Virus record (IMG/VR): IMGVR_UViG_2657245430_000003 | Direction: 5' to 3' (one strand) | Length of the DNA: 36,167 nucleotides | From: a virus | Lineage: Duplodnaviria; Heunggongvirae; Uroviricota; Caudoviricetes | Shown here: positions 1 to 27,902 of the stretch, piece after piece | How the letters are laid out: the number at the start of each line of letters is the position of its first letter | Position numbering within the stretch: the first letter of the stretch is position 1 | Program-made: the position numbers and the translations under genes | Notes under the pieces: model-generated | Database searches by the model: none | Seen by the model: only the letters and a program-made list of their open reading frames with translations | Told to the model about the DNA's origin: nothing

Positions 1-229
1 GGCAGCGGGCTTGTAATGGGTTAAGTGATAACAGATGTCTGGAAATATAGGGGCAAATCCAATCGTCGCCGTATTCCCGTATTAACAGAGACCGTAGCCC
101 GACGGGGAACTCCTTCTGCGCGAGTGTGCGGGAATAATCAAAAACGATGCACACCGGGGTTACCGGGTACACATATTTCATCATGCCAGCGAGTCCGGTT
201 CTGGCACGGAAGAAACCGGACGTTATGAT

Positions 230-640
230 TTAGTGCGGAAATATTTGTGTAGTGTTCTGTATGTTCTCAGTAAAGAGTAATGAATTATCAAAGGTATAGT
301 AATACCTTTTGTTTTCGTGGATATTTGTAATCCATCTGAAAACCCCTGCTGTAGCAAGATTTTTCCTGTATTCGTAAAATGATAACTCTCCTGATTTGAA
401 TCCTTTTAAGGTGGCTTCTATAAGGCATTTATTTTTTGAAAATCTTACATTTACAACCTTACCCTGTCCTTTTATTAAAACCGTATTATCGTTTTCAAGA
501 ACAAGATGAATATTCTCTGTGGCTAAATAGTAAATGTAATGTGAGACATTGTGACGTTTTAGTTCAGAATAAAACCAGTGATAGTTTAAATTATTTCGCA
601 CTTTATCGAATATTTGTTTAAAAATGGCAACCTGAGCCAT
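230..640 (-). CDS. hypothetical protein, AT-rich accessory (moron) gene; function unknown
   Basis: ORF track 230..655 (-), 141 aa. The second in-frame ATG at 640 has a GGAAGG Shine-Dalgarno-like motif about 8 nt upstream, the first ATG at 655 has none, so 640 is the likelier start. Composition is strongly AT-rich compared with the flanking phage genes. Same strand as and directly downstream of the RHH-like ORF. No family recognised. Confidence 0.45.
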
Positions 641-697
641 TGTAGTACCTTCCATGTGATATGAGGGGGCGTAGTCTGCACGATTATCTAAATTGCT

Positions 698-931
698 TCA
701 ATCTGGTCTAACCTGTTTTCTGAGCAATTCAGTAATGTCACTCTTTTCTTTGTTTGCTTCAGGCGAAACTCTTTTTTCTGAGCACAGTCTCCGGCGGCAG
801 GCTTCAATGACCCAGGCTGAGAAATTCCCGGACCCTTTTTGAACAAGAGCGATGTTAATTTGTTCAATCATTTGGTTAGGAAAGCGGATGTTGCGGGTTG
901 TTGTTCTGCGGGTTCTGTTCTTCGTTGACAT
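698..931 (-). CDS. putative ribbon-helix-helix (Arc/MetJ/CopG-like) DNA-binding protein
   Basis: 77-aa ORF. The N-terminus is Arg/Thr-rich, then RFPNQMIEQINIALVQKGSGNFSAWVIEA fits a beta-strand followed by helices as in RHH proteins. AGGG lies about 7 nt upstream of the ATG. Assignment is by motif recognition only. Confidence 0.4.
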   Translation of the reverse strand: MSTKNRTRRTTTRNIRFPNQMIEQINIALVQKGSGNFSAWVIEACRRRLCSEKRVSPEANKEKSDITELLRKQVRPD

Positions 932-1100
932 GAGGTTGCCCTGTATTCAGTGTCGCTGATTTGTATTGTCTGAAGTTGTTTTTACGTTAAGTTGATGCAG
1001 ATCAATTAATACGATACCTGCGTCATAATTGATTATTTGACGTGGTTTGATGGCGTAGATGCACGTTGTGACATGTAGATGATAATTATTATCATTTTGC

Positions 1101-1319
1101 GGGTCCTTTCCGGCGATCCGACAGGTTACGGGGCGGAAGGCGCGCGGGTTTTCGCTATTTATGACAATTTTCCGGTTTAAGGCGTTTCCGTTCTTCTTCG
1201 CCGTAACCTAATGTTTTTATTTAAAACACCCCCTGAAAAGAAAGGAAACGACAGGTGCTGAAAACGGGCTTTTTGGCCTCTGTCGTTTCCTTTCTCTGTT
1301 TTTGTCCGTGGAATGAACA
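1101..1319 (+). other. cos: cos region: cosQ-like sequence, cosN (about 1131-1142) and cosB upstream of nu1
   Basis: GGGTCCTTTCCGGCGATCCGACAGGTTACG at 1101-1130 matches the lambda right end as I recall it. It is followed by GGGCGG...CGCGGGTTTTCGCTATTTATG and the lambda-like cosB/IHF region up to the nu1 ATG at 1320. Confidence 0.75.
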
Positions 1320-1839
1320 ATGGAAGTCAACAAAAAGCAGCTGGCTGACATTTTCGGTGCGAGTATCCGTACCATTCAGAACTGGCAGGAACAGGGAATG
1401 CCCGTTCTGCGAGGCGGTGGCAAGGGTAATGAGGTGCTTTATGACTCTGCCGCCGTTATAAGATGGTATGCCGAAAGGGATGCTGAAATTGAGAACGAAA
1501 AGCTGCGCCGGGAAGTTGAAGAACTGCGGCAGGCCAGCGAGACAGATCTCCAGCCAGGGACTATTGAGTACGAACGCCATCGACTTACGCGTGCGCAGGC
1601 CGACGCACAGGAGCTGAAAAATGCCAGAGACTCCGCTGAAGTGGTGGAAACCGCATTCTGTACTTTCGTGCTGTCGCGGATCGCAGGTGAAATTGCCAGT
1701 ATTCTCGACGGGATCCCCCTGTCGGTGCAGCGGCGTTTTCCGGAACTGGAAAACCGACATGTTGATTTCCTGAAACGGGATATCATCAAAGCCATGAACA
1801 AAGCAGCCGCGCTGGATGAACTGATACCGGGGTTGCTGA

Positions 1840-1865
<26 letters not shown>
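1320..1865 (+). CDS. nu1: terminase small subunit Nu1
   Basis: 181 aa, MEVNKKQLADIFGASIRTIQNWQEQGMPVL..., near-identical to lambda Nu1 from memory. It sits right after cosB and overlaps A by 26 nt as in lambda. Confidence 0.95.
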
Positions 1866-14558: not shown

Positions 14559-15256
14559 TGCAGGATATCCGGCAGGAAACACTGAATGAATGCACCCGTG
14601 CGGAGCAGTCGGCCAGCGTGGTGCTCTGGGAAATCGATCTGACAGAGGTCGGTGGTGAACGTTATTTTTTCTGTAATGAGCAGAACGAAAAAGGTGAGCC
14701 GGTCACCTGGCAGGGGCGACAGTATCAGCCGTATCCCATTCAGGGGAGTGGTTTTGAACTGAATGGCAAAGGCACCAGTACGCGCCCCACGCTGATGGTT
14801 TCTAACCTGTACGGTATGGTCACCGGGATGGCGGAAGATCTACAGAGTCTGGTCGGCGGAACGGTGGTCCGGCGTAAGGTTTACGCCCGTTTTCTGGATG
14901 CGGTGAACTTCGTCAACGGAAACAGTGACGCCGATCCGGAGCAGGAGGTGATCAGCCGCTGGCGCATTGAGCAGTGCAGCGAACTGAGCGCGGTGAGTGC
15001 CTCTTTTGTACTGTCCACGCCGACGGAAACAGATGGCGCTGTTTTTCCGGGACGTATCATGCTGGCCAACACCTGCACCTGGACCTATCGCGGCGATGAG
15101 TGCGGTTATCACGGTCCGGCGGTCGCGGATGAATATGACCAGCCAACGTCCGACATCACGAAGGATAAATGCAGCAAATGCCTGAGTGGCTGTAAGTTTC
15201 GCAATAACGTCGGCAACTTTGGCGGCTTCCTTTCCATTAACAAACTTTCGCAGTAA
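14558..15256 (+). CDS. L: tail tip protein L
   Basis: 232 aa, MQDIRQETLNECTRAEQSASVVLWEIDLTEVGGERYFFCNEQ.... Start overlaps the M stop (TGATG). Confidence 0.93.
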   Translation: MQDIRQETLNECTRAEQSASVVLWEIDLTEVGGERYFFCNEQNEKGEPVTWQGRQYQPYPIQGSGFELNGKGTSTRPTLMVSNLYGMVTGMAEDLQSLVGGTVVRRKVYARFLDAVNFVNGNSDADPEQEVISRWRIEQCSELSAVSASFVLSTPTETDGAVFPGRIMLANTCTWTYRGDECGYHGPAVADEYDQPTSDITKDKCSKCLSGCKFRNNVGNFGGFLSINKLSQ

Positions 15257-15261
15257 ATCCC

Positions 15262-16005
15262 ATGACAGAGACAGAATCAGCGATTCTGGCGCACGCCCGG
15301 CGATGTGCTCCAGCGGAGTCGTGCGGCTTCGTGGTAAGAACGCCGGAGGGGGAAAGATATTTCCCCTGCGTGAATATCTCCGGTGAGCCGGAGGCGTATT
15401 TCCGTATGTCGCCGGAAGACTGGCTGCAGGCAGAGATGCAGGGTGAGATTGTGGCACTGGTCCACAGCCACCCCGGTGGTCTGCCCTGGCTGAGTGAGGC
15501 CGACCGGCGGCTGCAGGTGCAGAGTGATTTGCCGTGGTGGCTGGTCTGCCGGGGGGCGATTCACAAGTTCCGCTGTGTGCCACATCTTACCGGGCGGCGC
15601 TTTGAGCACGGGGTGACGGACTGTTACACGCTGTTCCGGGATGCTTACCATCTGGCGGGGATTGAGATGCCGGATTTTCATCGTGAGGATGACTGGTGGC
15701 GTCACGGTCAGAATCTCTATCTGGATAATCTGGAGGCCACAGGGCTGTATCAGGTGCCGTTGTCAGCGGCGCAGCCGGGCGATGTGCTGCTGTGCTGTTT
15801 TGGTTCATCGGTGCCGAATCATGCCGCCATTTACTGTGGTGACGGCGAGCTGCTGCACCATATTCCTGAACAACTGAGCAAACGAGAGAGGTATACCGAC
15901 AAATGGCAGCGACGCACACACTCCCTCTGGCGTCACCGGGCATGGCACGCATCTGCCTTTACGGGGATTTGCAACGATTTGGCCGCCGCATCGACCTTCG
16001 TGTGA
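15262..16005 (+). CDS. K: tail tip assembly protein K (MPN/JAMM and NlpC/P60 domains)
   Basis: 247-aa ORF with an HSHPGG...SEAD JAMM-like motif and a C-terminal Cys/His region. The C-terminus matches lambda K. Confidence 0.9.
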   Translation: MTETESAILAHARRCAPAESCGFVVRTPEGERYFPCVNISGEPEAYFRMSPEDWLQAEMQGEIVALVHSHPGGLPWLSEADRRLQVQSDLPWWLVCRGAIHKFRCVPHLTGRRFEHGVTDCYTLFRDAYHLAGIEMPDFHREDDWWRHGQNLYLDNLEATGLYQVPLSAAQPGDVLLCCFGSSVPNHAAIYCGDGELLHHIPEQLSKRERYTDKWQRRTHSLWRHRAWHASAFTGICNDLAAASTFV

Positions 16006-16253
16006 AAACGGGTGCCGAAGCCATCCGGGCGATGGCCACACAGCTCCCTGCGTTTCGTCAGAAGCTGAGCGACGGCTGGTATCAGGTGCGTATTGCCGGG
16101 CAGGATGTTAGCACGTCCGGATTAACGGCACAGTTACATGAGGCTCTGCCTGACGGCGCTGTGATTCATATTGTTCCCAGAGTCGCCGGGGCCAAGTCAG
16201 GTGGTGTATTCCAGATTGTCCTGGGAGCAGCCGCCATTGCCGGATCATTCTTT
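15903..16253 (+). CDS. I: tail tip assembly protein I, 3'-truncated at the N at 16254
   Basis: MAATHTLPLASPGMARICLYGDLQRFGRRIDLRVKTGAEAIRAMATQ..., overlapping the K 3' end as in lambda. The reading frame is cut by the scaffold join at 16254. Confidence 0.8.
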
Positions 16254-16254
16254 N

Positions 16255-16944
16255 ATTCCACAGGAAACACATCATGAGACGACACGCCTCACTCAGTCAG
16301 CCCAGGTGGTGCTCTGGGAAATCGATCTGACAGAGGTCGGTGGTGAACGTTATTTTTTCTGTAATGAGCAGAACGAAAAAGGTGAGCCGGTTACCTGGCA
16401 GGGGCGGCAGTATCAGGCATACCCCATTCAGGGGACGGGATTTGAACTGAACGGCAAGGGCAGTGCTGCCCGTCCGACACTGACGGTTTCTAACCTGCAC
16501 GGAATGGTCACCGGGATGGCGGAAGACCTGCAGAGTCTGGTCGGCGGAACGGTGGTCAGGCGTAAGGTTTACGCCCGTTTTCTGGATGCGGTGAACTTCG
16601 TCAACGGAAACAGCGACGCCGATCCGGAACAGGAGGTGATCAGCCGCTGGCGCATCGAGCAGTGCAGCGAACTGAGCGCGGTCAGTGCCTCTTTTGTGCT
16701 GGCCACACCAACGGAGACGGATGGCGCGGTTTTCCCGGGGCGTATCATGCTGGCGAATACCTGTATGTGGACTTACCGTTCTGATGAGTGTGGTTACACG
16801 GGCAGGGCAGTGGCTGACGAGTTCGACAAACCAACGACGGATATCCGGAAGGACAAATGCAGCAAGTGTATGCGCGGGTGTGAGTTGCGCAACAATACCG
16901 GTAATTTCGGCGGTTTCCTTTCCATCAATAAACTTTCTCAGTAA
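16255..16944 (+). CDS. L: tail tip protein L, second diverged copy, 5'-partial (contig starts near codon 5)
   Basis: ..QETHHETTRLTQSAQVVLWEIDLTEVGGERYFFCNEQ..., with scattered substitutions relative to the first L at 14558-15256. Begins immediately after the N at 16254. Confidence 0.8.
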   Translation: MPQETHHETTRLTQSAQVVLWEIDLTEVGGERYFFCNEQNEKGEPVTWQGRQYQAYPIQGTGFELNGKGSAARPTLTVSNLHGMVTGMAEDLQSLVGGTVVRRKVYARFLDAVNFVNGNSDADPEQEVISRWRIEQCSELSAVSASFVLATPTETDGAVFPGRIMLANTCMWTYRSDECGYTGRAVADEFDKPTTDIRKDKCSKCMRGCELRNNTGNFGGFLSINKLSQ

Positions 16945-16948
16945 ATCC

Positions 16949-17692
16949 ATGACACAGACAGAATCAGCGATTCTGGCGCACGCCCGGCGATGTGCGCCAG
17001 CGGAGTCGTGTGGCTTCGTGGTAAGAACGCCGGAGGGAGACAGGTATCTTCCCAGCGAGAATATCTCCGGTGAGCCGGAGGAACGGTTCCGGATGGCTCC
17101 GGAGGACTGGCTGCGGGCACAAATGCAGGGTGAGATTGTGGCGCTGGTCCACAGTCATCCCGGTGGTCTGCCCTGGCTGAGTGAGGCTGACCGGCGGCTG
17201 CAGGTGCAGAGTGATTTGCCGTGGTGGCTGGTCTGCCGGGGGGCGATTCACAAGTTCCGCTGTGTGCCACATCTTACCGGGCGGCGCTTTGAGCACGGGG
17301 TGACGGACTGTTACACGCTGTTCCGGGATGCTTACCATCTGGCGGGGATTGAGATGCCGGATTTTCATCGTGAGGATGACTGGTGGCGTCACGGTCAGAA
17401 TCTCTATCTGGATAATCTGGAGGCCACAGGGCTGTATCAGGTGCCGTTGTCAGCGGCGCAGCCGGGCGATGTGCTGCTGTGCTGTTTTGGTTCATCGGTG
17501 CCGAATCATGCCGCCATTTACTGTGGTGACGGCGAGCTGCTGCACCATATTCCTGAACAACTGAGCAAACGAGAGAGGTATACCGACAAATGGCAGCGAC
17601 GCACACACTCCCTCTGGCGTCACCGGGCATGGCACGCATCTGCCTTTACGGGGATTTGCAACGATTTGGCCGCCGCATCGACCTTCGTGTGA
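16949..17692 (+). CDS. K: tail tip assembly protein K, second copy
   Basis: MTQTESAILAHARRCAPAESCGFVVRTPEGDRYLPSENISGEPEERF..., 247 aa, start ATG at 16949. Confidence 0.85.
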   Translation: MTQTESAILAHARRCAPAESCGFVVRTPEGDRYLPSENISGEPEERFRMAPEDWLRAQMQGEIVALVHSHPGGLPWLSEADRRLQVQSDLPWWLVCRGAIHKFRCVPHLTGRRFEHGVTDCYTLFRDAYHLAGIEMPDFHREDDWWRHGQNLYLDNLEATGLYQVPLSAAQPGDVLLCCFGSSVPNHAAIYCGDGELLHHIPEQLSKRERYTDKWQRRTHSLWRHRAWHASAFTGICNDLAAASTFV

Positions 17693-18261
17693 AAACGGGT
17701 GCCGAAGCCATCCGGGCGATGGCCACACAGCTCCCTGCGTTTCGTCAGAAGCTGAGCGACGGCTGGTATCAGGTGCGTATTGCCGGGCAGGATGTTAGCA
17801 CGTCCGGATTAACGGCACAGTTACATGAGGCTCTGCCTGACGGCGCTGTGATTCATATTGTTCCCAGAGTCGCCGGGGCCAAGTCAGGTGGTGTATTCCA
17901 GATTGTCCTGGGAGCAGCCGCCATTGCCGGATCATTCTTTACCGCCGGAGCCACCCTTGCAGCATGGGGGGCTGCCATTGGTGCCGGTGGTATGACCGGC
18001 ATTCTGTTTTCTCTCGGTGCCAGTATGGTGCTCGGCGGTGTGGCTCAGATGCTGGCACCGAAAGCCAGAACTCCCCGCACACAGACAACGGATAACGGTA
18101 AGCAGAACACCTATTTCTCCTCACTGGATAACATGGTTGCCCAGGGCAATGTTATGCCTGTTCTGTATGGTGAAATGCGCGTGGGGTCACGTGTGGTATC
18201 TCAGGAGATCAGCACGGCAGACGAAGGGGACGGTGGTCAGGTTGTGGTGATTGGTCGCTGA
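17590..18261 (+). CDS. I: tail tip assembly protein I, second copy, full length
   Basis: 223 aa, the lambda gpI length. Gly/Ala-rich hydrophobic centre and conserved C-terminus ...VVSQEISTADEGDGGQVVVIGR. Confidence 0.88.
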   Translation: MAATHTLPLASPGMARICLYGDLQRFGRRIDLRVKTGAEAIRAMATQLPAFRQKLSDGWYQVRIAGQDVSTSGLTAQLHEALPDGAVIHIVPRVAGAKSGGVFQIVLGAAAIAGSFFTAGATLAAWGAAIGAGGMTGILFSLGASMVLGGVAQMLAPKARTPRTQTTDNGKQNTYFSSLDNMVAQGNVMPVLYGEMRVGSRVVSQEISTADEGDGGQVVVIGR

Positions 18262-18321
18262 TGCAAAATGTTTTATGTGAAATCGCCTCCGGGCGGTTTT
18301 ATCGTTTATGGAGCATGACGA

Positions 18322-18722
18322 ATGGGTAAAGGCAGCAGTAAGGGGCATACCCCGCGCGAAGCGAAGGACAACCTGAAGTCCACGCAGCTGCTGAGTGTGA
18401 TCGATGCCATCAGCGAAGGGCCGGTTGAAGGTCCGGTGGATGGATTAAAAAGCGTGCTGCTGAACAGTACGCCGGTGCTGGACAGTGAGGGGAATACCAA
18501 CATCTCCGGCGTCACGGTGGTGTTCCGGGCAGGTGAGCAGGAGCAGTCACCGCCGGAGGGATTTGAATCCTCCGGCTCCGAGACGGTGCTGGGTACGGAA
18601 GTGAAATATGACACGCCGATCACCCGGACCATCACGTCGGCAAACATTGACCGACTGCGTTTTACCTTCGGTGTACAGGCACTGGTGGAAACCACCTCAA
18701 AGGGAGACAGGAATCCGTCTGA
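18322..18722 (+). CDS. J: tail tip / host-specificity protein J, N-terminal fragment, truncated at the N at 18723
   Basis: [48 protein letters not shown].... After the N the frame continues into K sequence (EIVALVHSHPGG), which is a join artefact. Confidence 0.8.
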
Positions 18723-18723
18723 N

Positions 18724-19284
18724 GAGATTGTGGCGCTGGTCCACAGTCATCCCGGTGGTCTGCCCTGGCTGAGTGAGGCCGACCGGCGGCTGCAGGTGCA
18801 GAGTGATTTGCCGTGGTGGCTGGTCTGCCGGGGGGCGATTCACAAGTTCCGCTGTGTGCCGCATCTCACCGGGCGGCGCTTTGAGCACGGGGTGACGGAC
18901 TGTTACACGCTGTTCCGGGATGCTTATCATCTGGCAGGGATTGAGATGCCGGATTTTCATCGCGGGGATGACTGGTGGCGTAACGGTCAGAATCTCTATC
19001 TTGACAATATGGAGGTGACGGGTTTTTACCGTGTCGCACTGACAGAGGCACAGCCGGGCGATGTGCTGCTGTGCTGTTTTGGTTCATCGGTGCCGAATCA
19101 TGCCGCCATTTACTGTGGTGACGGCGAGCTGCTGCACCATATTCCTGAACAACTGAGCAAACGAGAGAGGTATACCGACAAATGGCAGCGACGCACACAC
19201 TCCCTCTGGCGTCACCGGGCATGGCACGCATCTGCCTTTACGGGGATTTGCAACGATTTGGCCGCCGCATCGACCTTCGTGTGA
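18724..19284 (+). CDS. K: tail tip assembly protein K, 5'-truncated fragment (residues about 62-247)
   Basis: EIVALVHSHPGGLPWLSEADRRLQVQSDLPWWLVCRG... to the stop at 19284. Starts right after the N. Confidence 0.8.
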   Translation, partial: EIVALVHSHPGGLPWLSEADRRLQVQSDLPWWLVCRGAIHKFRCVPHLTGRRFEHGVTDCYTLFRDAYHLAGIEMPDFHRGDDWWRNGQNLYLDNMEVTGFYRVALTEAQPGDVLLCCFGSSVPNHAAIYCGDGELLHHIPEQLSKRERYTDKWQRRTHSLWRHRAWHASAFTGICNDLAAASTFV

Positions 19285-19853
19285 AAACGGGTGCCGAAGC
19301 CATCCGGGCGATGGCCACACAGCTCCCTGCGTTTCGTCAGAAGCTGAGCGACGGCTGGTATCAGGTGCGTATTGCCGGGCAGGATGTTAGCACGTCCGGA
19401 TTAACGGCACAGTTACATGAGGCTCTGCCTGACGGCGCTGTGATTCATATTGTTCCCAGAGTCGCCGGGGCCAAGTCAGGTGGTGTATTCCAGATTGTCC
19501 TGGGAGCAGCCGCCATTGCCGGATCATTCTTTACCGCCGGAGCCACCCTTGCAGCATGGGGGGCTGCCATTGGTGCCGGTGGTATGACCGGCATTCTGTT
19601 TTCTCTCGGTGCCAGTATGGTGCTCGGCGGTGTGGCTCAGATGCTGGCACCGAAAGCCAGAACTCCCCGTACACAGACAACGGATAACGGTAAGCAGAAC
19701 ACCTATTTCTCCTCACTGGATAACATGGTTGCCCAGGGCAATGTTATGCCTGTTCTGTATGGTGAAATGCGCGTGGGGTCACGTGTGGTATCTCAGGAGA
19801 TCAGCACGGCAGACGAAGGGGACGGTGGTCAGGTTGTGGTGATTGGTCGCTGA
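19182..19853 (+). CDS. I: tail tip assembly protein I, third copy
   Basis: 223 aa, almost identical to the copy at 17590-18261. Confidence 0.85.
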   Translation: MAATHTLPLASPGMARICLYGDLQRFGRRIDLRVKTGAEAIRAMATQLPAFRQKLSDGWYQVRIAGQDVSTSGLTAQLHEALPDGAVIHIVPRVAGAKSGGVFQIVLGAAAIAGSFFTAGATLAAWGAAIGAGGMTGILFSLGASMVLGGVAQMLAPKARTPRTQTTDNGKQNTYFSSLDNMVAQGNVMPVLYGEMRVGSRVVSQEISTADEGDGGQVVVIGR

Positions 19854-19913
19854 TGCAAAATGTTTTATGTGAAATCGCCTCCGGGCGGTTTTATCGTTTA
19901 TGGAGCATGACGA

Positions 19914-21286
19914 ATGGGTAAAGGCAGCAGTAAGGGGCATACCCCGCGCGAAGCGAAGGACAACCTGAAGTCCACGCAGCTGCTGAGTGTGATCGATGCC
20001 ATCAGCGAAGGGCCGGTTGAAGGTCCGGTGGATGGATTAAAAAGCGTGCTGCTGAACAGTACGCCGGTGCTGGACAGTGAGGGGAATACCAACATCTCCG
20101 GCGTCACGGTGGTGTTCCGGGCAGGTGAGCAGGAGCAGTCACCGCCGGAGGGATTTGAATCCTCCGGCTCCGAGACGGTGCTGGGTACGGAAGTGAAATA
20201 TGACACGCCGATCACCCGGACCATCACGTCGGCAAACATTGACCGACTGCGTTTTACCTTCGGTGTACAGGCACTGGTGGAAACCACCTCAAAGGGAGAC
20301 AGGAATCCGTCTGAAGTTCGCCTGCTGGTTCAGATACAGCGTAACGGTGGCTGGGTGACGGAAAAAGACATCACCATTAAGGGCAAAACCACCTCGCAGT
20401 ATCTGGCCTCGGTGGTGGTGGATAACCTGCCGCCGCGCCCGTTTAATATCCGGATGCGCAGAATGACGCCGGACAGCACCACAGACCAGCTGCAGAACAA
20501 AACGCTCTGGTCGTCATACACCGAAATCATCGATGTGAAACAGTGCTACCCGAACACGGCACTGGTCGGCGTACAGGTGGATTCGGAGCAGTTCGGCAGC
20601 CAGCAGGTGAGCCGTAATTATCATCTTCGCGGGCGCATTCTGCAGGTGCCGTCGAACTATAACCCGCAGACGCGGCAATACAGCGGTATCTGGGACGGAA
20701 CGCTTAAGCCAGCATACAGCAACAACATGGCCTGGTGTCTGTGGGATATGCTGACCCATCCGCGCTATGGCATGGGGAAACGTCTTGGTGCGGCAGATGT
20801 GGATAAATGGGCGCTGTATGTCATCGGCCAGTACTGTGACCAGTCGGTGCCGGACGGCTTTGGCAGCACGGAGCCGCGCATCACCTGTAATGCCTGGCTG
20901 ACCACACAGCGCAAGGCGTGGGATGTGCTCAGTGATTTCTGCTCGGCGATGCGCTGTATGCCGGTATGGAACGGGCAGACGCTGACGTTCGTGCAGGACC
21001 GACAGTCGGATAAGGTGTGGGCCTATAACCGCAGTAATGTGGTGATGCCGGATGATGGCGCGCCGTTCCGCTACAGTTTCAGCGCCCTGAAAGACCGCCA
21101 TAATGCCGTTGAGGTGAACTGGATTGACCCGGATAACGGCTGGGAGACGGCGACAGAGCTTGTGGAGGATACGCAGGCCATTGCCCGTTACGGTCGTAAT
21201 GTCACGAAGATGGATGCCTTTGGCTGTACCAGCCGGGGGCAGGCACACCGCGCCGGGCTGTGGCTGATTAAAACGGAACTGCTGGA
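19914..21286 (+). CDS. J: J protein, N-terminal about 458 aa, truncated at the N-run 21287-21297
   Basis: Lambda-like J N-terminus through ...[11 protein letters not shown], then 11 Ns. Confidence 0.8.
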
Positions 21287-21297
21287 NNNNNNNNNNN

Positions 21298-21821
21298 TGC
21301 CCTGGCTGAGTGAGGCCGACCGGCGGCTGCAGGTGCAGAGTGATTTGCCGTGGTGGCTGGTCTGCCGGGGGGCGATTCACAAGTTCCGCTGTGTGCCGCA
21401 TCTCACCGGGCGGCGCTTTGAGCACGGGGTGACGGACTGTTACACGCTGTTCCGGGATGCTTATCATCTGGCAGGGATTGAGATGCCGGATTTTCATCGC
21501 GGGGATGACTGGTGGCGTAACGGTCAGAATCTCTATCTTGACAATATGGAGGTGACGGGTTTTTACCGTGTCGCACTGACAGAGGCACAGCCGGGCGATG
21601 TGCTGCTGTGCTGTTTTGGTTCATCGGTGCCGAATCATGCCGCCATTTACTGCGGTGACGGCGGGCTGCTGCACCATATTCCTGAACAACTGAGCAAACG
21701 AGAGAGGTACACCGACAAATGGCAGCGACGCACACACTCCCTCTGGCGTCACCGGGCATGGCGCGCATCTGCCTTTACGGGGATTTACAACGATTTGGTC
21801 GCCGCATCGACCTTCGTGTGA
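21298..21821 (+). CDS. K: tail tip assembly protein K, 5'-truncated fragment
   Basis: (L)PWLSEADRRLQVQ... to the stop. The C-terminus has RASAFTGIYNDLVAASTFV, as in lambda, unlike the other copies (HASAFTGICNDLAAASTFV). Confidence 0.8.
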
Positions 21822-22360
21822 AAACGGGGGCTGAAGCCATCCGGGCACTGGCCACACAGCTCCCGGCGTTTCGTCAGAAACTGAGTGACGGCTGGTATCA
21901 GGTGCGCATTGCCGGGCGTGATGCAGGTGAAACCGAATTGTCTGCCCGTCTTAATGAGCCGCTGGCAAATGGTGCAGTGATCCACATAGTACCGCGTCTG
22001 GTGGGAGCTAAAAGTGGCGGTGTGTTTCAGGCGGTGCTGGGGGCGGCTGTTATGGCGGTTGCTATATGGATGCCGGGGGTAGGAATTATGGCGAGTAATC
22101 TGCTGTTTTCTCTCGGTGCCAGTATGACGCTTGGCGGTGTTGCACAGATGCTGGCACCGAAAGCCAGAACTCCCCGTACACAGACAACGGATAACGGTAA
22201 GCAGAACACCTATTTCTCCTCACTGGATAACATGGTTGCCCAGGGCAATGTTCTGCCCGTTCTGTACGGTGAAATGCGCGTGGGGTCACGTGTGGTTTCT
22301 CAGGAGATCAGCACGGCAGACGAAGGGGACGGTGGTCAGGTTGTGGTGATTGGTCGCTGA
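21719..22360 (+). CDS. I: tail tip assembly protein I, variant 213-aa allele
   Basis: N- and C-termini conserved. The central segment (AGRDAGETELSARLNEPLANGAVIHIVPRLVGAKSGGVFQAVLGAAVMAVAIWMPGVGIMASNLL) differs from the other I copies, a mosaic pattern. Confidence 0.85.
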   Translation: MAATHTLPLASPGMARICLYGDLQRFGRRIDLRVKTGAEAIRALATQLPAFRQKLSDGWYQVRIAGRDAGETELSARLNEPLANGAVIHIVPRLVGAKSGGVFQAVLGAAVMAVAIWMPGVGIMASNLLFSLGASMTLGGVAQMLAPKARTPRTQTTDNGKQNTYFSSLDNMVAQGNVLPVLYGEMRVGSRVVSQEISTADEGDGGQVVVIGR

Positions 22361-22420
22361 TGCAAAATGTTTTATGTGAAACCGCCTGCGGGCGGTTTTG
22401 TCGTTTATGGAGCGTGAGGA

Positions 22421-24985
22421 ATGGGTAAAGGCAGCAGTAAGGGGCATACCCCGCGCGAAGCGAAGGACAACCTGAAATCCACGCAGTTGCTGAGTGTGAT
22501 TGATGCCATCAGCGAAGGGCCGGTTGACGGTCCGGTGGATGGATTAAAAAGCGTGCTGCTGAACGGTACGCCGGTCCTGGACAGCGAGGGGAAGACAAAC
22601 TTTTCCGGTGTTACGGTGGTGTTCCGTGCAGGTGAGCAGGAGCAGACACCGCCGGAGGGTTTTGAATCCTCCGGCTCCGAGACGGTGCTGGGTACGGAAG
22701 TGAAATATGACACGCCGATCACCCGGACCATCACGTCGGCAAACATCGACCGTCTGCGCCTGACCTTCGGTGTGCAGGCACTGGTGGAAACCACCTCAAA
22801 GGGTGACCGGAATCCGTCGGAAGTCCGCCTGCTGGTTCAGATACAGCGTAACGGTGGCTGGGTGACGGAAAAAGACATCACCATTAAGGGCAAAACCACC
22901 TCGCAGTATCTGGCCTCGGTGGTGGTGGATAACCTGCCGCCGCGCCCGTTTAATATCCGGATGCGCAGAATGACGCCGGACAGCACCACAGACCAGCTGC
23001 AGAACAAAACGCTCTGGTCGTCATACACCGAAATCATCGATGTGAAACAGTGCTACCCGAACACGGCGCTGGTCGGCGTGCAGGTGGATTCAGAGCAGTT
23101 CGGTAACCAGCAGGTGAGTCGCAATTATCATCTTCGCGGGCGCATTCTGCAGGTGCCGTCGAACTATAACCCGCAGACGCGGCAATACAGCGGTATCTGG
23201 GACGGAACGCTTAAGCCAGCATACAGCAACAACATGGCCTGGTGTCTGTGGGACATGCTCACTCATCCGCGCTACGGCATGGGGAAACGTCTTGGTGCGG
23301 CAGATGTGGATAAATGGGCGCTGTATGTCATCGGCCAGTACTGCGACCAGTCAGTGACGGACGGATTTGGCGGCACGGAGCCGCGCATCACCTGTAACTC
23401 TTACCTGACCACACAGCGTAAGGCGTGGGATGTTCTCAGTGATTTCTGCTCGGCGATGCGCTGTATGCCGGTATGGAACGGACAGATGCTGACGTTCGTG
23501 CAGGACCGACCGTCGGATAAGGTGTGGACCTATAACCGCAGTAATGTGGTGATGCCGGATGATGGCGCGCCGTTCCGCTACAGTTTCAGCGCCCTGAAAG
23601 ACCGCCATAATGCCGTTGAGGTGAACTGGATTGACCCAGATAACGGCTGGGAGACGGCGACAGAGCTTGTGGAGGATACGCAGGCCATTGCCCGTTACGG
23701 TCGTAATGTCACGAAGATGGATGCCTTTGGCTGTACCAGCCGGGGGCAGGCACACCGAGCCGGGCTGTGGCTGATTAAAACGGAACTGCTGGAAACGCAG
23801 ACCGTGGACTTCAGCGTGGGCGCAGAAGGGCTTCGCCATGTACCGGGTGATGTCATTGAAATCTGCGATGATGATTATGCCGGTATCAGCACCGGTGGTC
23901 GCGTACTGGCGGTGAACAGCCAGACCCGGACGCTGACGCTCGACCGTGAAATCACGCTGCCGTCCTCCGGTACCACGCTGATAAGCCTGGTTGACGGAAG
24001 TGGCAATCCGGTCAGCGTGGAGGTCCAGTCCGTCACCGACGGCGTGAAGGTGAAAGTGAGCCGGGTTCCTGACGGCGTTGCAGAATACAGCGTGTGGGGG
24101 CTGAAGCTGCCGACGCTGCGCCAGCGTCTGTTCCGCTGCGTGAGTATCCGTGAGAACGACGACGGCACGTATGCCATCACCGCCGTGCAGCATGTGCCGG
24201 AAAAAGAGGCCATCGTGGATAACGGGGCACACTTTGACGGTGACCGGCGCGGCACGGTGAATGGTGTCACGCCGCCAGCGGTGCAGCATCTGACCGCCGA
24301 AGTCACCGCAGACAGCGGGGAATATCAGGTGCTGGCGCGATGGGACACGCCGAAGGTGGTGAAGGGTGTGAGCTTCCTGCTTCGCCTGACCGTGGCAGCG
24401 GACGACGGCAGTGAGCGGCTGGTCAGCACAGCCAGGACGACGGAAACCACATACCGCTTCAGGCAGCTGGCGCTGGGGAATTACAGTCTGACAGTCCGGG
24501 CGGTAAATGCCCGGGGGCAGCAGGGCGATCCGGCGTCGGTATCGTTCCGGATTGCGGCACCGGCAGCGCCTGTCACTATTGAACTGATACCGGGGTATTT
24601 TCAGATAACGGCGGTCCCGAAACTGGCTGTATATGACCCGACGGTGCAGTTTGAGTTCTGGTTTTCGGAAAAGCGGATTGCGGATATCAGGCAGGTTGAA
24701 ACCAGCGCCCGCTATCTTGGCACGGCGCTGTACTGGATAGCCGCCAGTATCAATATCAGGCCGGGCCATGATTATTATTTTTACGTTCGCAGTGTGAACA
24801 CCGTTGGCAAATCGGCATTTGTGGAGGCCATCGGTCGGGCGAGCGATGATGCAGAAGGTTATCTGAATTTTTATAAAGGGTTGATCAATAAAACGCATCT
24901 CGGCAAGGAGTTGTGGACGCAGATTGATAACGGTCAGCTTGCGCCGGACCTGACTGAAATCAGGACGTCCATTACGAATGTCAGC
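22421..24985 (+). CDS. J: J protein, N-terminal about 855 aa, truncated at the N at 24986
   Basis: Longest continuous J segment. Ends ...[12 protein letters not shown] at the join. Confidence 0.85.
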
Positions 24986-24986
24986 N

Positions 24987-26424
24987 GGCTGGGAGACGGC
25001 GACAGAGCTTGTGGAGGATACGCAGGCCATTGTCCGTTACGGTCGTAACGTCACGAAGATGGATGCCTTTGGCTGTACCAGCCGGGGGCAGGCACACCGC
25101 GCCGGGCTGTGGCTGATTAAAACGGAACTGCTGGAGACGCAGACCGTGGATTTCAGCGTGGGTGCTGAAGGGCTTCGTCATGTACCGGGCGATGTCATTG
25201 AAATCTGCGATGATGACTATGCCGGTATCCGCACCGGCGGGCGCGTGCTGGCGGTGAACAGCCAGACCCGGACGCTGACGCTCGACCGTGAAATCACGCT
25301 GCCGTCCTCCGGTACCACGCTGATAAGCCTGGTTGACGGAAGTGGCAATCCGGTCAGCGTGGAGGTCCAGTCCGTCACCGACGGCGTGAAGGTGAAAGTG
25401 AGCCGGGTTCCTGACGGCGTTGCAGAATACAGCGTGTGGGGGCTGAAGCTGCCGACGCTGCACCAGCGATTGTTCCGCTGCGTGAGTATCCGTGAGAACG
25501 ACGACGGCACGTATGCCATCACCGCCGTGCAGCATGTGCCGGAAAAAGAAGCCATCGTGGATAACGGGGCGCACTTTGACGGCGACCAGAGCGGCACGGT
25601 GAATGGTGTCACGCCGCCAGCGGTGCAGCACCTGACTGCCGAAGTCACCGCAGACAGCGGGGAATATCAGGTGCTGGCGCGATGGGACACGCCGAAGGTG
25701 GTGAAGGGTGTGAGCTTCCTGCTTCGCCTGACCGTGGCAGCGGACGACGGCAGTGAGCGGCTGGTCAGCACAGCCAGGACGACGGAAACCACATACCGCT
25801 TCAGGCAGCTGGCGCTGGGGAATTACAGTCTGACAGTCCGGGCGGTAAATGCCCGGGGGCAGCAGGGCGATCCGGCGTCGGTATCGTTCCGGATTGCCGC
25901 ACCGGCAGCGCTGTCGCGGATTGAGCTGACGCCGGGCTATTTTCAGATAACCGCCACGCCGCATCTTGCGGTTTATGATCCGACGGTACAGTTTGAGTTC
26001 TGGTTCTCGGAAAAGCGGATTGCGGATATCAGGCAGGTTGAAACCACAGCACGCTATCTTGGCACGGCGCTGTACTGGATAGCCGCCAGTATCAATATCA
26101 AACCGGGCCATGATTATTACTTTTATATCCGCAGTGTGAACACCGTTGGCAAATCGGCATTCGTGGAGGCTGTTGGTCAGCCGAGTGATGATGCATCCGG
26201 TTATCTGGATTTTTTCAAAGGCGAGATAGGGAAAACCCATCTGGCTCAGGAGCTGTGGACGCAGATTGATAACGGTCAGCTTGCGCCTGACCTGGCTGAA
26301 ATCAGGACGTCCATTACGGATGTCAGCAATGAAATCACGCAGACCGTCAATAAGAAACTGGAAGACCAGAGTGCGGCAATTCAGCAGATACAGAAGGTTC
26401 AGGTTGATACAAATAATAACCTGA
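24987..26424 (+). CDS. J: J protein internal fragment (lambda J about residue 405 to 880), bounded by Ns on both sides
   Basis: [29 protein letters not shown] ... [11 protein letters not shown]. It re-covers J sequence already present at 23640-24985, with substitutions. Confidence 0.75.
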
Positions 26425-26425
26425 N

Positions 26426-27902
26426 CAGCACGGCCCGGACGACGGAAACCACTTACCGCTTCACACAACTGGCGCTGGGGAACTACAGGCTGACAGTCCG
26501 GGCAGTAAATGCGTGGGGGCAGCAGGGCGATCCGGCGTCGGTATCGTTCCGGATTGCGGCACCGGCAGCGCCTGTCACTATTGAACTGATACCGGGGTAT
26601 TTTCAGATAACGGCGGTCCCGAAACTGGCTGTATATGACCCGACGGTGCAGTTTGAGTTCTGGTTTTCGGAAAAGCGGATTGCGGATATCAGGCAGGTTG
26701 AAACCACAGCACGCTATCTTGGCACGGCGCTGTACTGGATAGCCGCCAGTATCAATATCAAACCGGGCCATGATTATTACTTTTATATCCGCAGTGTGAA
26801 CACCGTTGGCAAATCGGCATTCGTGGAGGCTGTTGGTCAGCCGAGTGATGATGCATCCGGTTATCTGGATTTTTTCAAAGGCGAGATAGGGAAAACCCAT
26901 CTGGCTCAGGAGCTGTGGACGCAGATTGATAACGGTCAGCTTGCGCCGGACCTGACTGAAATCAGGACGTCCATTACGAATGTCAGCAATGAAATCACGC
27001 AAACCGTCAATAAAAAACTGGAAAATCAGAGTGCTGCAATCCAGCAGATACAGAAAGTTCAGGTTGATACAAATAATAACCTGAACAGCATGTGGGCTGT
27101 GAAGCTGCAACAGATGAAGGACGGACGCCTTTATATTGCGGGTATCGGTGCCGGTATTGAGAATACGCCAGCAGGAATGCAGAGTCAGGTGCTGCTGGCG
27201 GCAGACAGGATTGCGATGATTAATCCTGCGAATGGCAACACAAAGCCGATGTTTGTTGGTCAGGGCGATCAGATATTCATGAACGACGTGTTCCTGAAAT
27301 GCCTGACGGCTCCGACCATTACCAGCGGCGGTAATCCTCCGGCATTTTCCCTGACACCTGGCGGACGGCTGACGGCGAAAAATGCCGATATCAGCGGTAA
27401 CGTGAACGCGAACTCCGGGACGCTCAACAACGTCACGATTAATAAGAACTGTCGGGTTCTGGGAAAATTGTCCGCGAACCAGATTGAAGGCGATCTCGTT
27501 AAAACAGTGGGCAAACCTTTCCCACGGGACTCCCGGGCACCGGAGAGGTGGCCATCAGGGACCATTACCGTCAGGGTTTATGACGATCAGCCGTTTGATC
27601 GGCAAATTGTTATTCCCGCGGTGGCGTTTCGCGGTGCTAAACATGAGCGGAAGAATAACAATATTTATTCGTCATGCCGCCTGATAGTGAAGAAAAACGG
27701 TGCTGAAATTTATAACCGAACGACCCTGGATAATACGCTGATATATACGGGTGTTATTGATATGCCTGCCGGTCACGGTCACATGACGCTGGAGTTTTCT
27801 GTATCGGCATGGCTGGTAAATGGCTGGTATCCCACAGCAAGTATCAGCGATTTGCTGGTTGTGGTGATGAAGAAAGCCACTGCAGGCATCACGATTAGCT
27901 GA
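26426..27902 (+). CDS. J: J protein C-terminal fragment (receptor-binding region, variant 1) ending at the native stop
   Basis: [33 protein letters not shown]... to ...[14 protein letters not shown]. The C-terminal roughly 150 aa differ from the variant at 29191-31040 and from lambda. Confidence 0.8.

What the first reader, a model, noticed from the sequence alone, without database searches (positions are those of the whole stretch)
230..931. Two-gene accessory insertion next to cos: RHH-like regulator plus AT-rich unknown protein
The region from about 940 to 1320 matches the lambda right end and cos, but 230-931 carries two minus-strand genes transcribed against the late operon. The first is a 77-aa protein with a ribbon-helix-helix-like pattern. 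The second is a 136-141 aa protein with much lower GC than the surrounding phage DNA, which suggests separate horizontal acquisition. A small RHH regulator followed by an unrelated effector is the layout of many type II toxin-antitoxin, abortive-infection and exclusion modules. I do not recognise the larger protein. This is the strongest candidate here for something undescribed, but it is a hypothesis.
Basis: partly seen in the sequence, partly recalled or inferred. Interest (0 to 1): 0.65.

Follow-up and report, generated by a model that had tools for sequence, protein, structure and literature searches.

The report
Known lambdoid ylcI–ybcV gene pair
The two reverse-strand genes next to cos are the ordinary, already catalogued lambdoid prophage genes of the YlcI/YnfO (DUF3950) and YbcV/YdfO (DUF1398) families. 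Phage lambda itself and about half of complete E. coli genomes carry them, and they do not form a new toxin–antitoxin or defence module.

Summary
Both ORFs are real: 698-931(-), 77 aa, and 230-655(-), which more likely starts at 640 (136 aa). The DUF1398 gene has 31% GC against 55% for the window.

Neither gene is new:
- The larger protein is DUF1398 (Pfam E 3e-43). It matches E. coli K-12 Qin YdfO (NMR structure PDB 2HH8) at E 1e-69 over its full length.
- The smaller protein is DUF3950, the YlcI/YnfO family.

This is not an insertion relative to lambda. Lambda has orthologues of both genes plus about 560 bp more (ybcW/lambdap79) between them. A homologous region covers at least 80% of the query in 2634 of 5426 complete E. 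coli genomes.

The pair is not obligate:
- YlcI occurs in 153 phage records and DUF1398 in 43.
- Stx phages have YlcI beside an unrelated HNH-TerS-TerL module and no DUF1398.
- Divergent DUF1398 genes stand alone in chromosomes.

The YlcI N-domain is under purifying selection (pN/pS 0.1-0.2). Its RHH fold is plausible but unproven. DUF1398 appears to have its own promoter with a PdhR-box-like palindrome.

Function remains unknown. A toxin–antitoxin or abortive-infection reading is unsupported.

The parts
230..640 (-). DUF1398 (YbcV/YdfO/lambdap78 family) gene, 136 aa. The ORF also opens at an ATG at 655 (141 aa).
   Evidence: Pfam PF07166, E 3.3e-43, full-length. phmmer against PDB 2HH8 (YdfO), E 1.4e-69. 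76% identical to lambda and Qin alleles by tblastn. GGAAGG lies 7 nt before the ATG at 640, and RefSeq aa. GC is 0.314.
698..931 (-). YlcI/YnfO-family (DUF3950) gene, 77 aa. It has a conserved N-domain (codons 1-52, window 776-931) and a variable C-terminal tail (698-775).
   Evidence: PF13132, E 2e-20; NF041551, E 9e-9. pN/pS is 0.10-0.22 over the first 52 codons. The tails are unrelated between alleles. AF2 gives helices 19-32 and 34-52.
683..710 (-). Sigma-70 promoter-like site (TAGACC, 16 nt, GATAAT) directly upstream of the DUF1398 gene, inside the 3' end of ylcI and the spacer.
   Evidence: Consensus scan only; the count of such sites in the region does not exceed shuffles. The block is conserved in lambda up to the point where the lambda-specific 560 bp begins. 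Function is inferred.
701..717 (.). PdhR-box-like palindrome ATCTGGTCTAACCTGTT. It overlaps the -35 hexamer and the ylcI stop codon.
   Evidence: Read from the sequence. PMC7660256 lists the same sites at ybcV/ybcW (AtcTGGTctgACCtcTT) and ynfO/ydfO (AAcaGGTcagACCAgaT) as PdhR gSELEX peaks. ybcV mRNA fell 10-fold in a pdhR mutant.
656..697 (-). 42-nt spacer, in frame with both ORFs and free of stop codons after the ylcI TGA.
   Evidence: All 71 compact loci fetched keep TGA here. The database 'fusion' protein P0013 is a gene-caller artefact.
1001..1033 (.). Inverted repeat ATCAATTAATACG / CGTCATAATTGAT, 70-100 bp upstream of the ylcI start. It is a candidate operator.
   Evidence: the repeat finder I1: 13-nt arms, 85% complementary. 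Identical in lambda. Function is not tested.
1131..1142 (+). cosN position (context). The 12-nt cohesive-end sequence here is GGGCGGAAGGCG instead of lambda's GGGCGGCGACCT.
   Evidence: Alignment with lambda. The variant is found in 12 fetched loci and the canonical form in 118.
1320..1865 (+). Nu1 small terminase gene (context): the start of the late packaging and head operon.
   Evidence: ORF list and lambda annotation.

Best explanation
These are two independent accessory genes of the lambdoid right arm. They are not one functional module.

(1) ylcI/ynfO (DUF3950). This is a real protein-coding gene. It is fixed at the boundary between the lysis genes and the packaging genes and is transcribed away from the terminase genes. 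Its conserved 50-residue basic N-domain most likely forms a ribbon-helix-helix-type dimer that binds DNA, so it would be a small transcription regulator (inferred).

(2) ybcV/ydfO (DUF1398). This is an AT-rich moron that is optionally present between ylcI and the lysis/bor region. It most likely has its own sigma-70 promoter carrying a PdhR-box-like palindrome. It would therefore be expressed from the prophage under host control (PdhR, and probably H-NS silencing) rather than from the late operon, and would act on host physiology (inferred).

Neither gene is needed for lytic growth. The window carries the compact arrangement found in Qin (ynfO-ydfO) and in active phages such as PhiR49_1. Lambda and DLP12 carry the same genes with ybcW in between.
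For: - Identity: family hits; PDB 2HH8; alignment to lambda; annotations in lambda, O276, E. coli IH5 and PhiR49_1.
- Ubiquity: 2634 of 5426 complete E. coli genomes.
- Independence of the two genes: the YlcI N-domain is in 153 phage records and DUF1398 in 43. Stx phages have DUF3950 41 bp from HNH-terS-terL and no DUF1398. Lambda_ev203 has YlcI then bor, with no DUF1398. DUF1398 relatives of 37-53% identity, and 80 metagenome loci of a divergent branch, have no YlcI within 4 kb.
- ylcI is coding: pN/pS is 0.10-0.22, and homology with Stx alleles starts exactly at the ATG.
- Own promoter and PdhR.
- H-NS link: ybcV and ybcW rose more than 1000-fold when T4 MotB, which alters H-NS repression, was overexpressed (PMC7827196).
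- Dispensable: lambdap78 knock-down gave an EOP of 1.3-1.9.
Against: - No function is demonstrated for either protein.
- The promoter is only a consensus match in a region where such matches do not exceed shuffles.
- The PdhR evidence comes from K-12 DLP12 and Qin, not from this allele.
- In the compact arrangement the genes share a strand, lie 42 nt apart and have no predicted terminator between them. Co-transcription and regulation of DUF1398 by YlcI are therefore not excluded.
- The DUF1398 AF2 model was poor (pLDDT 53), so the fold search was uninformative.
Confidence: 0.6

Rival explanations
1. In the compact arrangement, YlcI is the dedicated (auto)regulator of a ylcI-DUF1398 operon. It is a regulator-effector cassette but not a toxin-antitoxin pair.
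For: The genes share a strand, have a 42-nt gap and have no terminator-like site between them. The arrangement is identical in Qin and in many active phages. An inverted repeat lies upstream of ylcI.
Against: Lambda and DLP12 keep both genes but split them with the oppositely oriented ybcW. The DUF1398 upstream block, with its promoter-like site and PdhR box, travels with DUF1398. At least 110 phage records have YlcI and no DUF1398.
Confidence: 0.2
2. One reading: a type II toxin-antitoxin, abortive-infection or exclusion module, with YlcI as an RHH antitoxin and DUF1398 as the toxin or effector.
Against: - There are no significant PADLOC hits.
- DUF1398 genes stand alone in chromosomes without any YlcI.
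- YlcI is widespread without DUF1398.
- In lambda and DLP12 the pair is not co-oriented and adjacent.
- The ASKA ybcV overexpression clone is viable and was scored only for a glycogen phenotype (PMC2853380).
- TraDIS flagged ydfO, not ynfO, as insertion-poor. A TA pair predicts the opposite.
- The database 'fusion' is an artefact, so it gives no evidence of linkage.
Confidence: 0.06
3. DUF1398 is a virion 'head protein' or 'envelope protein', as labelled by PHROG 413, RefSeq and old lambda annotation.
For: Only annotation labels support this.
Against: The gene lies on the strand opposite the late operon. It is absent from many related phages with the same head genes. Its knock-down has no effect on plating. 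Stand-alone chromosomal homologues exist outside prophages. I saw no signal peptide or transmembrane segment in the sequence, but I did not run a predictor.
Confidence: 0.02
4. The 77-aa ORF is not a gene. Its conservation would reflect DNA-level constraints near cos, or a recombination linker.
For: The DNA is nearly identical to lambda over 800-1130. The classic lambda record does not annotate it (H24).
Against: Synonymous differences reach 45-64% of sites while non-synonymous differences stay at 7-10%. Stx-phage alleles lie next to an unrelated packaging module, with an unrelated upstream sequence.
Confidence: 0.03

Closest known systems
E. coli K-12 Qin prophage ynfO-ydfO (next to nohQ)
   Same: It has the same compact arrangement, the same 77-aa YlcI/YnfO type with the same C-terminal tail, the same 42-nt in-frame spacer after TGA, and the same PdhR-box palindrome. 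The DUF1398 protein is 76% identical by tblastn, and the YdfO structure is solved (2HH8; phmmer E 1.4e-69).
   Different: The DUF1398 allele differs by about 24%. Here the module sits in an apparently complete lambda-like late region rather than in a decayed prophage.
Phage lambda right end (lambdap78, lambdap79, unannotated 64-aa ORF) and DLP12 ybcV-ybcW-ylcI-nohD
   Same: The genes are orthologous, lie in the same position between the lysis genes and cos, and are on the same strand. The DNA from ylcI codon 1 through cos is nearly identical.
   Different: Lambda and DLP12 have about 560 bp more, holding ybcW on the opposite strand. They also have a different YlcI C-terminal tail (64 aa) and bor downstream.
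Lambda morons bor and lom (lysogenic-conversion genes with their own promoters inside late regions)
   Same: These are AT-rich, dispensable genes. bor lies antisense to late transcription. They are optionally present between conserved flanks and probably have their own promoters.
   Different: Bor and Lom are envelope proteins with known phenotypes. DUF1398 has no known activity, and I saw no export signal in its sequence (no predictor was run).
Arc/Mnt/CopG ribbon-helix-helix repressors and RHH antitoxins (ParD, RelB, mycobacterial MazE)
   Same: Size, a basic N-terminal arm, an 'NIRFP' strand-like segment followed by two helices with a G-x-x-x-S turn, and low-Z structural matches.
   Different: There is no significant sequence-profile match. 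Dimerisation and DNA binding are untested. There is no cognate toxin.

Membership tests
Pfam PF07166 DUF1398 (YbcV/YdfO/YcgX) | Full-length match to the family HMM above the gathering score | tested here: met
   147 bits against a cutoff of 22; profile positions 1-119 of 119.
Pfam PF07166 DUF1398 (YbcV/YdfO/YcgX) | Close homology to the structurally solved member YdfO (PDB 2HH8) | tested here: met
DUF3950 / NCBIfam YlcI_YnfO_N | Match to the family HMMs above their cutoffs | tested here: met
   PF13132: 72.8 bits against 25. NF041551: 35.2 bits against 30.
DUF3950 / NCBIfam YlcI_YnfO_N | Protein-level purifying selection, i.e. a real gene | tested here: met
   pN/pS of 0.10-0.22 between lambda-type and Stx-type alleles.
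Ribbon-helix-helix (Arc/MetJ/CopG) superfamily | A beta-strand followed by helix-turn-helix, recognisable by sequence profile | tested here: not met
   No RHH Pfam family hit at E <= 10 for 19 members. A PDB profile search returned nothing.
Ribbon-helix-helix (Arc/MetJ/CopG) superfamily | RHH three-dimensional fold | tested here: inconclusive
Ribbon-helix-helix (Arc/MetJ/CopG) superfamily | Dimerisation through the strand, and operator binding | not testable with these tools
   This needs biochemistry. A candidate operator is the inverted repeat at 1001-1033.
Type II toxin-antitoxin module | Obligate co-occurrence and co-transcription of antitoxin and toxin | tested here: not met
   Each gene is common without the other. 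In lambda and DLP12 they are split by an opposite-strand gene.
Type II toxin-antitoxin module | The toxin belongs to a known toxin or defence family | tested here: not met
   PADLOC's best hit is Csx23 at E 0.025. Pfam HEPN_AbiA_CTD scores 15.8 bits against a cutoff of 27.
Type II toxin-antitoxin module | Growth arrest by the toxin, neutralised by the antitoxin | not testable with these tools
   Indirect evidence only: the ASKA ybcV clone is viable.
Moron (independently expressed accessory gene in a prophage late region) | Presence/absence polymorphism between conserved flanks, with deviant base composition | tested here: met
   DUF1398 is present or absent between ylcI and the lysis/bor genes. 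Its GC is 0.31 against 0.55 for the window.
Moron (independently expressed accessory gene in a prophage late region) | Own promoter and terminator, and expression in the lysogen | tested here: inconclusive
   There is a promoter-like site plus a PdhR box, and K-12 literature supports regulation. No terminator was found downstream of the gene, and there are no expression data for this element.

The most novel reading that the evidence does not exclude
In the compact (Qin/window-type) arrangement, the RHH-like YlcI and the DUF1398 protein might work together as a pyruvate-responsive (PdhR-controlled) prophage cassette. Such a cassette would alter host carbon metabolism or exclude other phages, making it a so far uncharacterised kind of lysogenic-conversion or defence system. 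A lower-probability extra is occasional read-through of the single in-frame TGA, which would give a YlcI-DUF1398 fusion.
Probability: 0.08. Interest if true: 0.5.

Novelty: already known. Interest (0 to 1): 0.12.

Why it matters
It matters little as a discovery. The genes are named in E. coli K-12 (ylcI/ynfO, ybcV/ydfO), are present in lambda itself and occur in roughly half of complete E. coli genomes.

The residual interest is that two extremely widespread lambdoid genes, one with a solved structure, still have no known function. The data here give three points that would help anyone designing a test:
- The two genes are independent.
- The YlcI N-domain is under purifying selection across two unrelated packaging systems.
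- The PdhR-box promoter block travels with DUF1398.

The work also flags wrong labels in databases: 'head protein', 'envelope protein' and a false fusion protein.

Tried and rejected
- **Rosetta-stone fusion.** P0013 and P0014 (DUF3950+DUF1398, 761 member sequences) looked like natural fusions. The DNA has TGA at the junction, so the 'W' comes from a gene caller using a TGA-recoding table. All 71 compact loci keep TGA.
- **Foldseek of the YlcI model against PDB.** Nothing was found at E < 1.
- **Sequence-profile tests for RHH.** These gave nothing.
- **Third homologous-protein search, with a diverse profile.** It listed only close relatives again and gave no new context.
- **The search for related loci with the 18-sequence alignment.** It failed because no stretch was conserved enough. 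The single divergent members P0277 and P0271 are not in viral contigs.
- **'YdfO overexpression protects against oxidative stress' (PMC4077768).** The cited paper, as far as I could search its main text, names YfdK, YfdO and YfdS of CPS-53 and never YdfO. I treated the statement as a name confusion.
- **The Pasteurella phage 'transcriptional repressor' hit to YlcI.** It lies on the strand opposite the annotated gene, so it is spurious.
- **Lambda lysogen ribosome-profiling data for lambdap78.** I did not find them in the papers I could search.

Full report
**Observation**

One is 698-931 (77 aa). The other is 230-655 (141 aa), with an internal ATG at 640 giving 136 aa. The ATG at 640 is preceded by GGAAGG at a proper distance and is the start RefSeq uses. 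The ATG at 655 has no Shine-Dalgarno.

GC content is 0.314 for the larger gene and 0.444 for the smaller. The window as a whole is 0.551, and Nu1 and A are 0.53-0.54. From about 800 to 1320 the sequence is nearly identical to the lambda right end, cos and the start of Nu1. The descriptive part of the finding therefore holds.

**Identity**

The larger protein is a full-length member of Pfam DUF1398 (E 3.3e-43). It matches E. coli K-12 YdfO of the Qin prophage over residues 1-140 at phmmer E 1.4e-69, and the YdfO NMR structure is PDB 2HH8. It is 76% identical to the lambda and Qin alleles by tblastn.

The smaller protein is DUF3950 / NCBIfam YlcI_YnfO_N.

PHROGs places the two proteins in phrog_413, labelled 'head protein', and phrog_949, function unknown. 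PADLOC gives nothing significant.

**Not an insertion**

Aligning window 1-1330 with lambda shows that homology runs from window 62 through both genes to cos. Lambda has lambdap78/YbcV, then about 560 bp more carrying lambdap79/YbcW on the other strand, then a 64-aa YlcI/YnfO ORF. That ORF is annotated in several newer records but not in J02459.

The lambda-specific segment begins immediately after the conserved block upstream of DUF1398 and ends inside the 3' part of ylcI. The two YlcI proteins therefore share residues 1-50 and have unrelated tails.

The compact arrangement of the window occurs in:
- Qin (ynfO-ydfO);
- many E. coli chromosomes, annotated 'DUF1398 domain-containing protein | YlcI/YnfO family protein | nohD';
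- active phages such as PhiR49_1, Kati, Chlobot and ev099.

A region covering at least 80% of window 1-1320 is present in 2634 of 5426 complete E. coli genomes.

**Is it a two-gene module?**

The distribution says no.
- By tblastn in the phage collection, the YlcI N-domain is in 153 records and DUF1398 in only 43.
- Stx-converting phages and relatives (phage 2851, Stx2a_1447, Stx1_699, 783R2) carry the DUF3950 gene 41 bp from, and divergent to, an HNH-TerS-TerL packaging module. That module is unrelated to lambda Nu1/A. These phages have no DUF1398.
- Lambda_ev203 has YlcI followed by bor, with no DUF1398.
- Conversely, DUF1398 relatives of 37-53% identity (the YcgX type, in Escherichia, Shigella, Citrobacter and Raoultella) have no YlcI within 4 kb.
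- Eighty metagenome loci of a more divergent branch also have no YlcI within 4 kb. Many of these lie on contigs of hundreds of kilobases, in varied chromosomal contexts.

The whole family is small: 196 representative clusters at E <= 1e-3 among 1.84 billion.

An apparent natural fusion of the two domains (P0013, 233 aa, 761 member sequences) turned out to be a gene-calling artefact. The DNA has TGA at the junction, as do all 71 compact loci fetched.

**Is ylcI a real gene?**

Yes. Between lambda-type and Stx-type alleles, the first 52 codons differ at 45-64% of synonymous sites but at only 7-10% of non-synonymous sites, giving a ratio of 0.10-0.22. The homology starts exactly at the ATG, and the upstream DNA is unrelated. 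Conservation is therefore at the protein level and is not a by-product of cos.

**RHH?**

The AF2 monomer model has pLDDT 67. It shows an extended basic N-terminus followed by helices 19-32 and 34-52. This is what an RHH monomer looks like.

Sequence-level tests gave little:
- Foldseek finds nothing.
- Pfam RHH families do not hit even at E <= 10.
- A PDB profile search is empty.
- hhalign against Arc and Mnt aligns the expected register (NIRFP with NLRWP and NFRMP), but at E 0.019 and E 0.23.

**Expression and regulation (partly from the literature)**

A sigma-70-like site (TAGACC, 16 nt, GATAAT; 710-683, minus strand) lies just upstream of DUF1398. It overlaps the palindrome ATCTGGTCTAACCTGTT at 701-717.

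The same palindrome at ybcV/ybcW and at ynfO/ydfO was recovered as a PdhR genomic-SELEX site. ybcV mRNA fell 10-fold in a pdhR mutant (PMC7660256). This block stays with DUF1398 in lambda, where ylcI is 560 bp away. That argues that DUF1398 has its own host-controlled promoter.

Overexpression of T4 MotB, which perturbs H-NS repression, raised ybcV and ybcW more than 1000-fold (PMC7827196). This fits silencing of an AT-rich gene.

CRISPRi knock-down of lambdap78 does not reduce lambda plating (PMC10695390). An ASKA ybcV clone is viable and was scored only as glycogen-deficient (PMC2853380).

A statement that YdfO overexpression protects against oxidative stress (PMC4077768) appears to confuse it with YfdO of CPS-53. 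No paper I could search assigns a function to either family.

**Interpretation**

The best reading is that two independent accessory genes happen to be adjacent in this variant.
- The first is a backbone gene for a small, probably RHH-type DNA-binding protein at the junction of the lysis and packaging genes.
- The second is an optional AT-rich moron (DUF1398) with its own host-regulated promoter.

The toxin-antitoxin, abortive-infection or exclusion reading fails on distribution, on arrangement in lambda and DLP12, on the lack of any defence-family signal and on tolerance of overexpression. An operon or regulator-effector relation in the compact variant is not excluded. A structural 'head' or 'envelope' role has only annotation labels behind it.

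**Novelty**

This is already known. Both families are curated, the genes have K-12 names, one has a PDB structure, and the same locus is in lambda. Only the function is open.

Noticed in passing
window 1131-1142: The 12-nt cohesive-end sequence at cosN is GGGCGGAAGGCG, not lambda's GGGCGGCGACCT. Five of the last six positions differ, while the flanks are conserved. The variant recurs in 12 fetched viral loci, and the canonical form is in 118. A different sticky end would make these phages' cos ends unable to anneal with lambda's.
   Followed up: partly
window 14600-27000: The tail-tip region is scrambled and repeated. There are four copies of a K-I block (300-nt segments at 15482, 17169, 18761 and 21298, 91-100% identical), a second copy of L (16171-16944), and ORFs in which the gpJ N-terminal domains run into a K-type NlpC/P60 domain (18322-19284, 19914-21821). 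A full-length J-like ORF follows, and further J-internal repeats lie at 23.6-26.9 kb. This is either a mis-assembly of several lambdoid prophages or a real recombinational array.
   Followed up: partly
L170-L206 (genome-contig hits): Contigs of about 3.5 kb or about 48.5 kb that are identical to the lambda right end (bor-ybcV-ybcW-ylcI) appear in assemblies labelled Pseudomonas, Kitasatospora, Brevibacillus, Flavobacterium, Shewanella and others. They look like lambda control-DNA contamination. From my own knowledge, the 3.5-kb size matches the nanopore control strand. They also inflate the protein database with frameshifted DUF1398 and DUF3950 variants from 3.5-kb ENA contigs.
   Followed up: partly
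P0013/P0014; L216:1274-1975: The protein database holds a 233-aa 'DUF3950+DUF1398 fusion' cluster with 761 member sequences. It exists only because a gene caller read the in-frame TGA as Trp. The DNA has a stop codon there.
   Followed up: yes
window 230-655 (annotation labels): PHROG 413 and RefSeq phage records label DUF1398 as 'head protein', and older lambda records label it 'putative envelope protein'. I found no evidence for either label, and the gene is dispensable and sits on the strand opposite the late operon.
   Followed up: partly
window 1001-1033: There is a 13-nt inverted repeat, ATCAATTAATACG / CGTCATAATTGAT, 70-100 bp upstream of ylcI. It is identical in lambda. It may be an operator for YlcI or a host-factor site near cos.
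   Followed up: no
window 1-61: The first 61 bases are not homologous to lambda. In E. coli IH5 they match a remnant next to a 'chaperone of endosialidase' pseudogene downstream of nohD. What lies downstream of the DUF1398 gene in the source genome is therefore cut off by the window edge, and no bor gene is visible here.
   Followed up: no
literature (PMC4077768 versus PMC3105296): The statement that 'YdfO overexpression increases oxidative-stress resistance' cites a paper that names YfdK, YfdO and YfdS of prophage CPS-53. This is probably a gene-name mix-up that has been copied into later tables.
   Followed up: yes
L224, L227, L229 (3538-3768, minus strand): Several divergent chromosomal DUF1398 genes have a conserved, divergently oriented 74-aa ORF (MLEGYFDLD...AVQAALEISKASV...) about 240 bp upstream. 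I did not identify it. It could be a different partner for that branch of the family.
   Followed up: no
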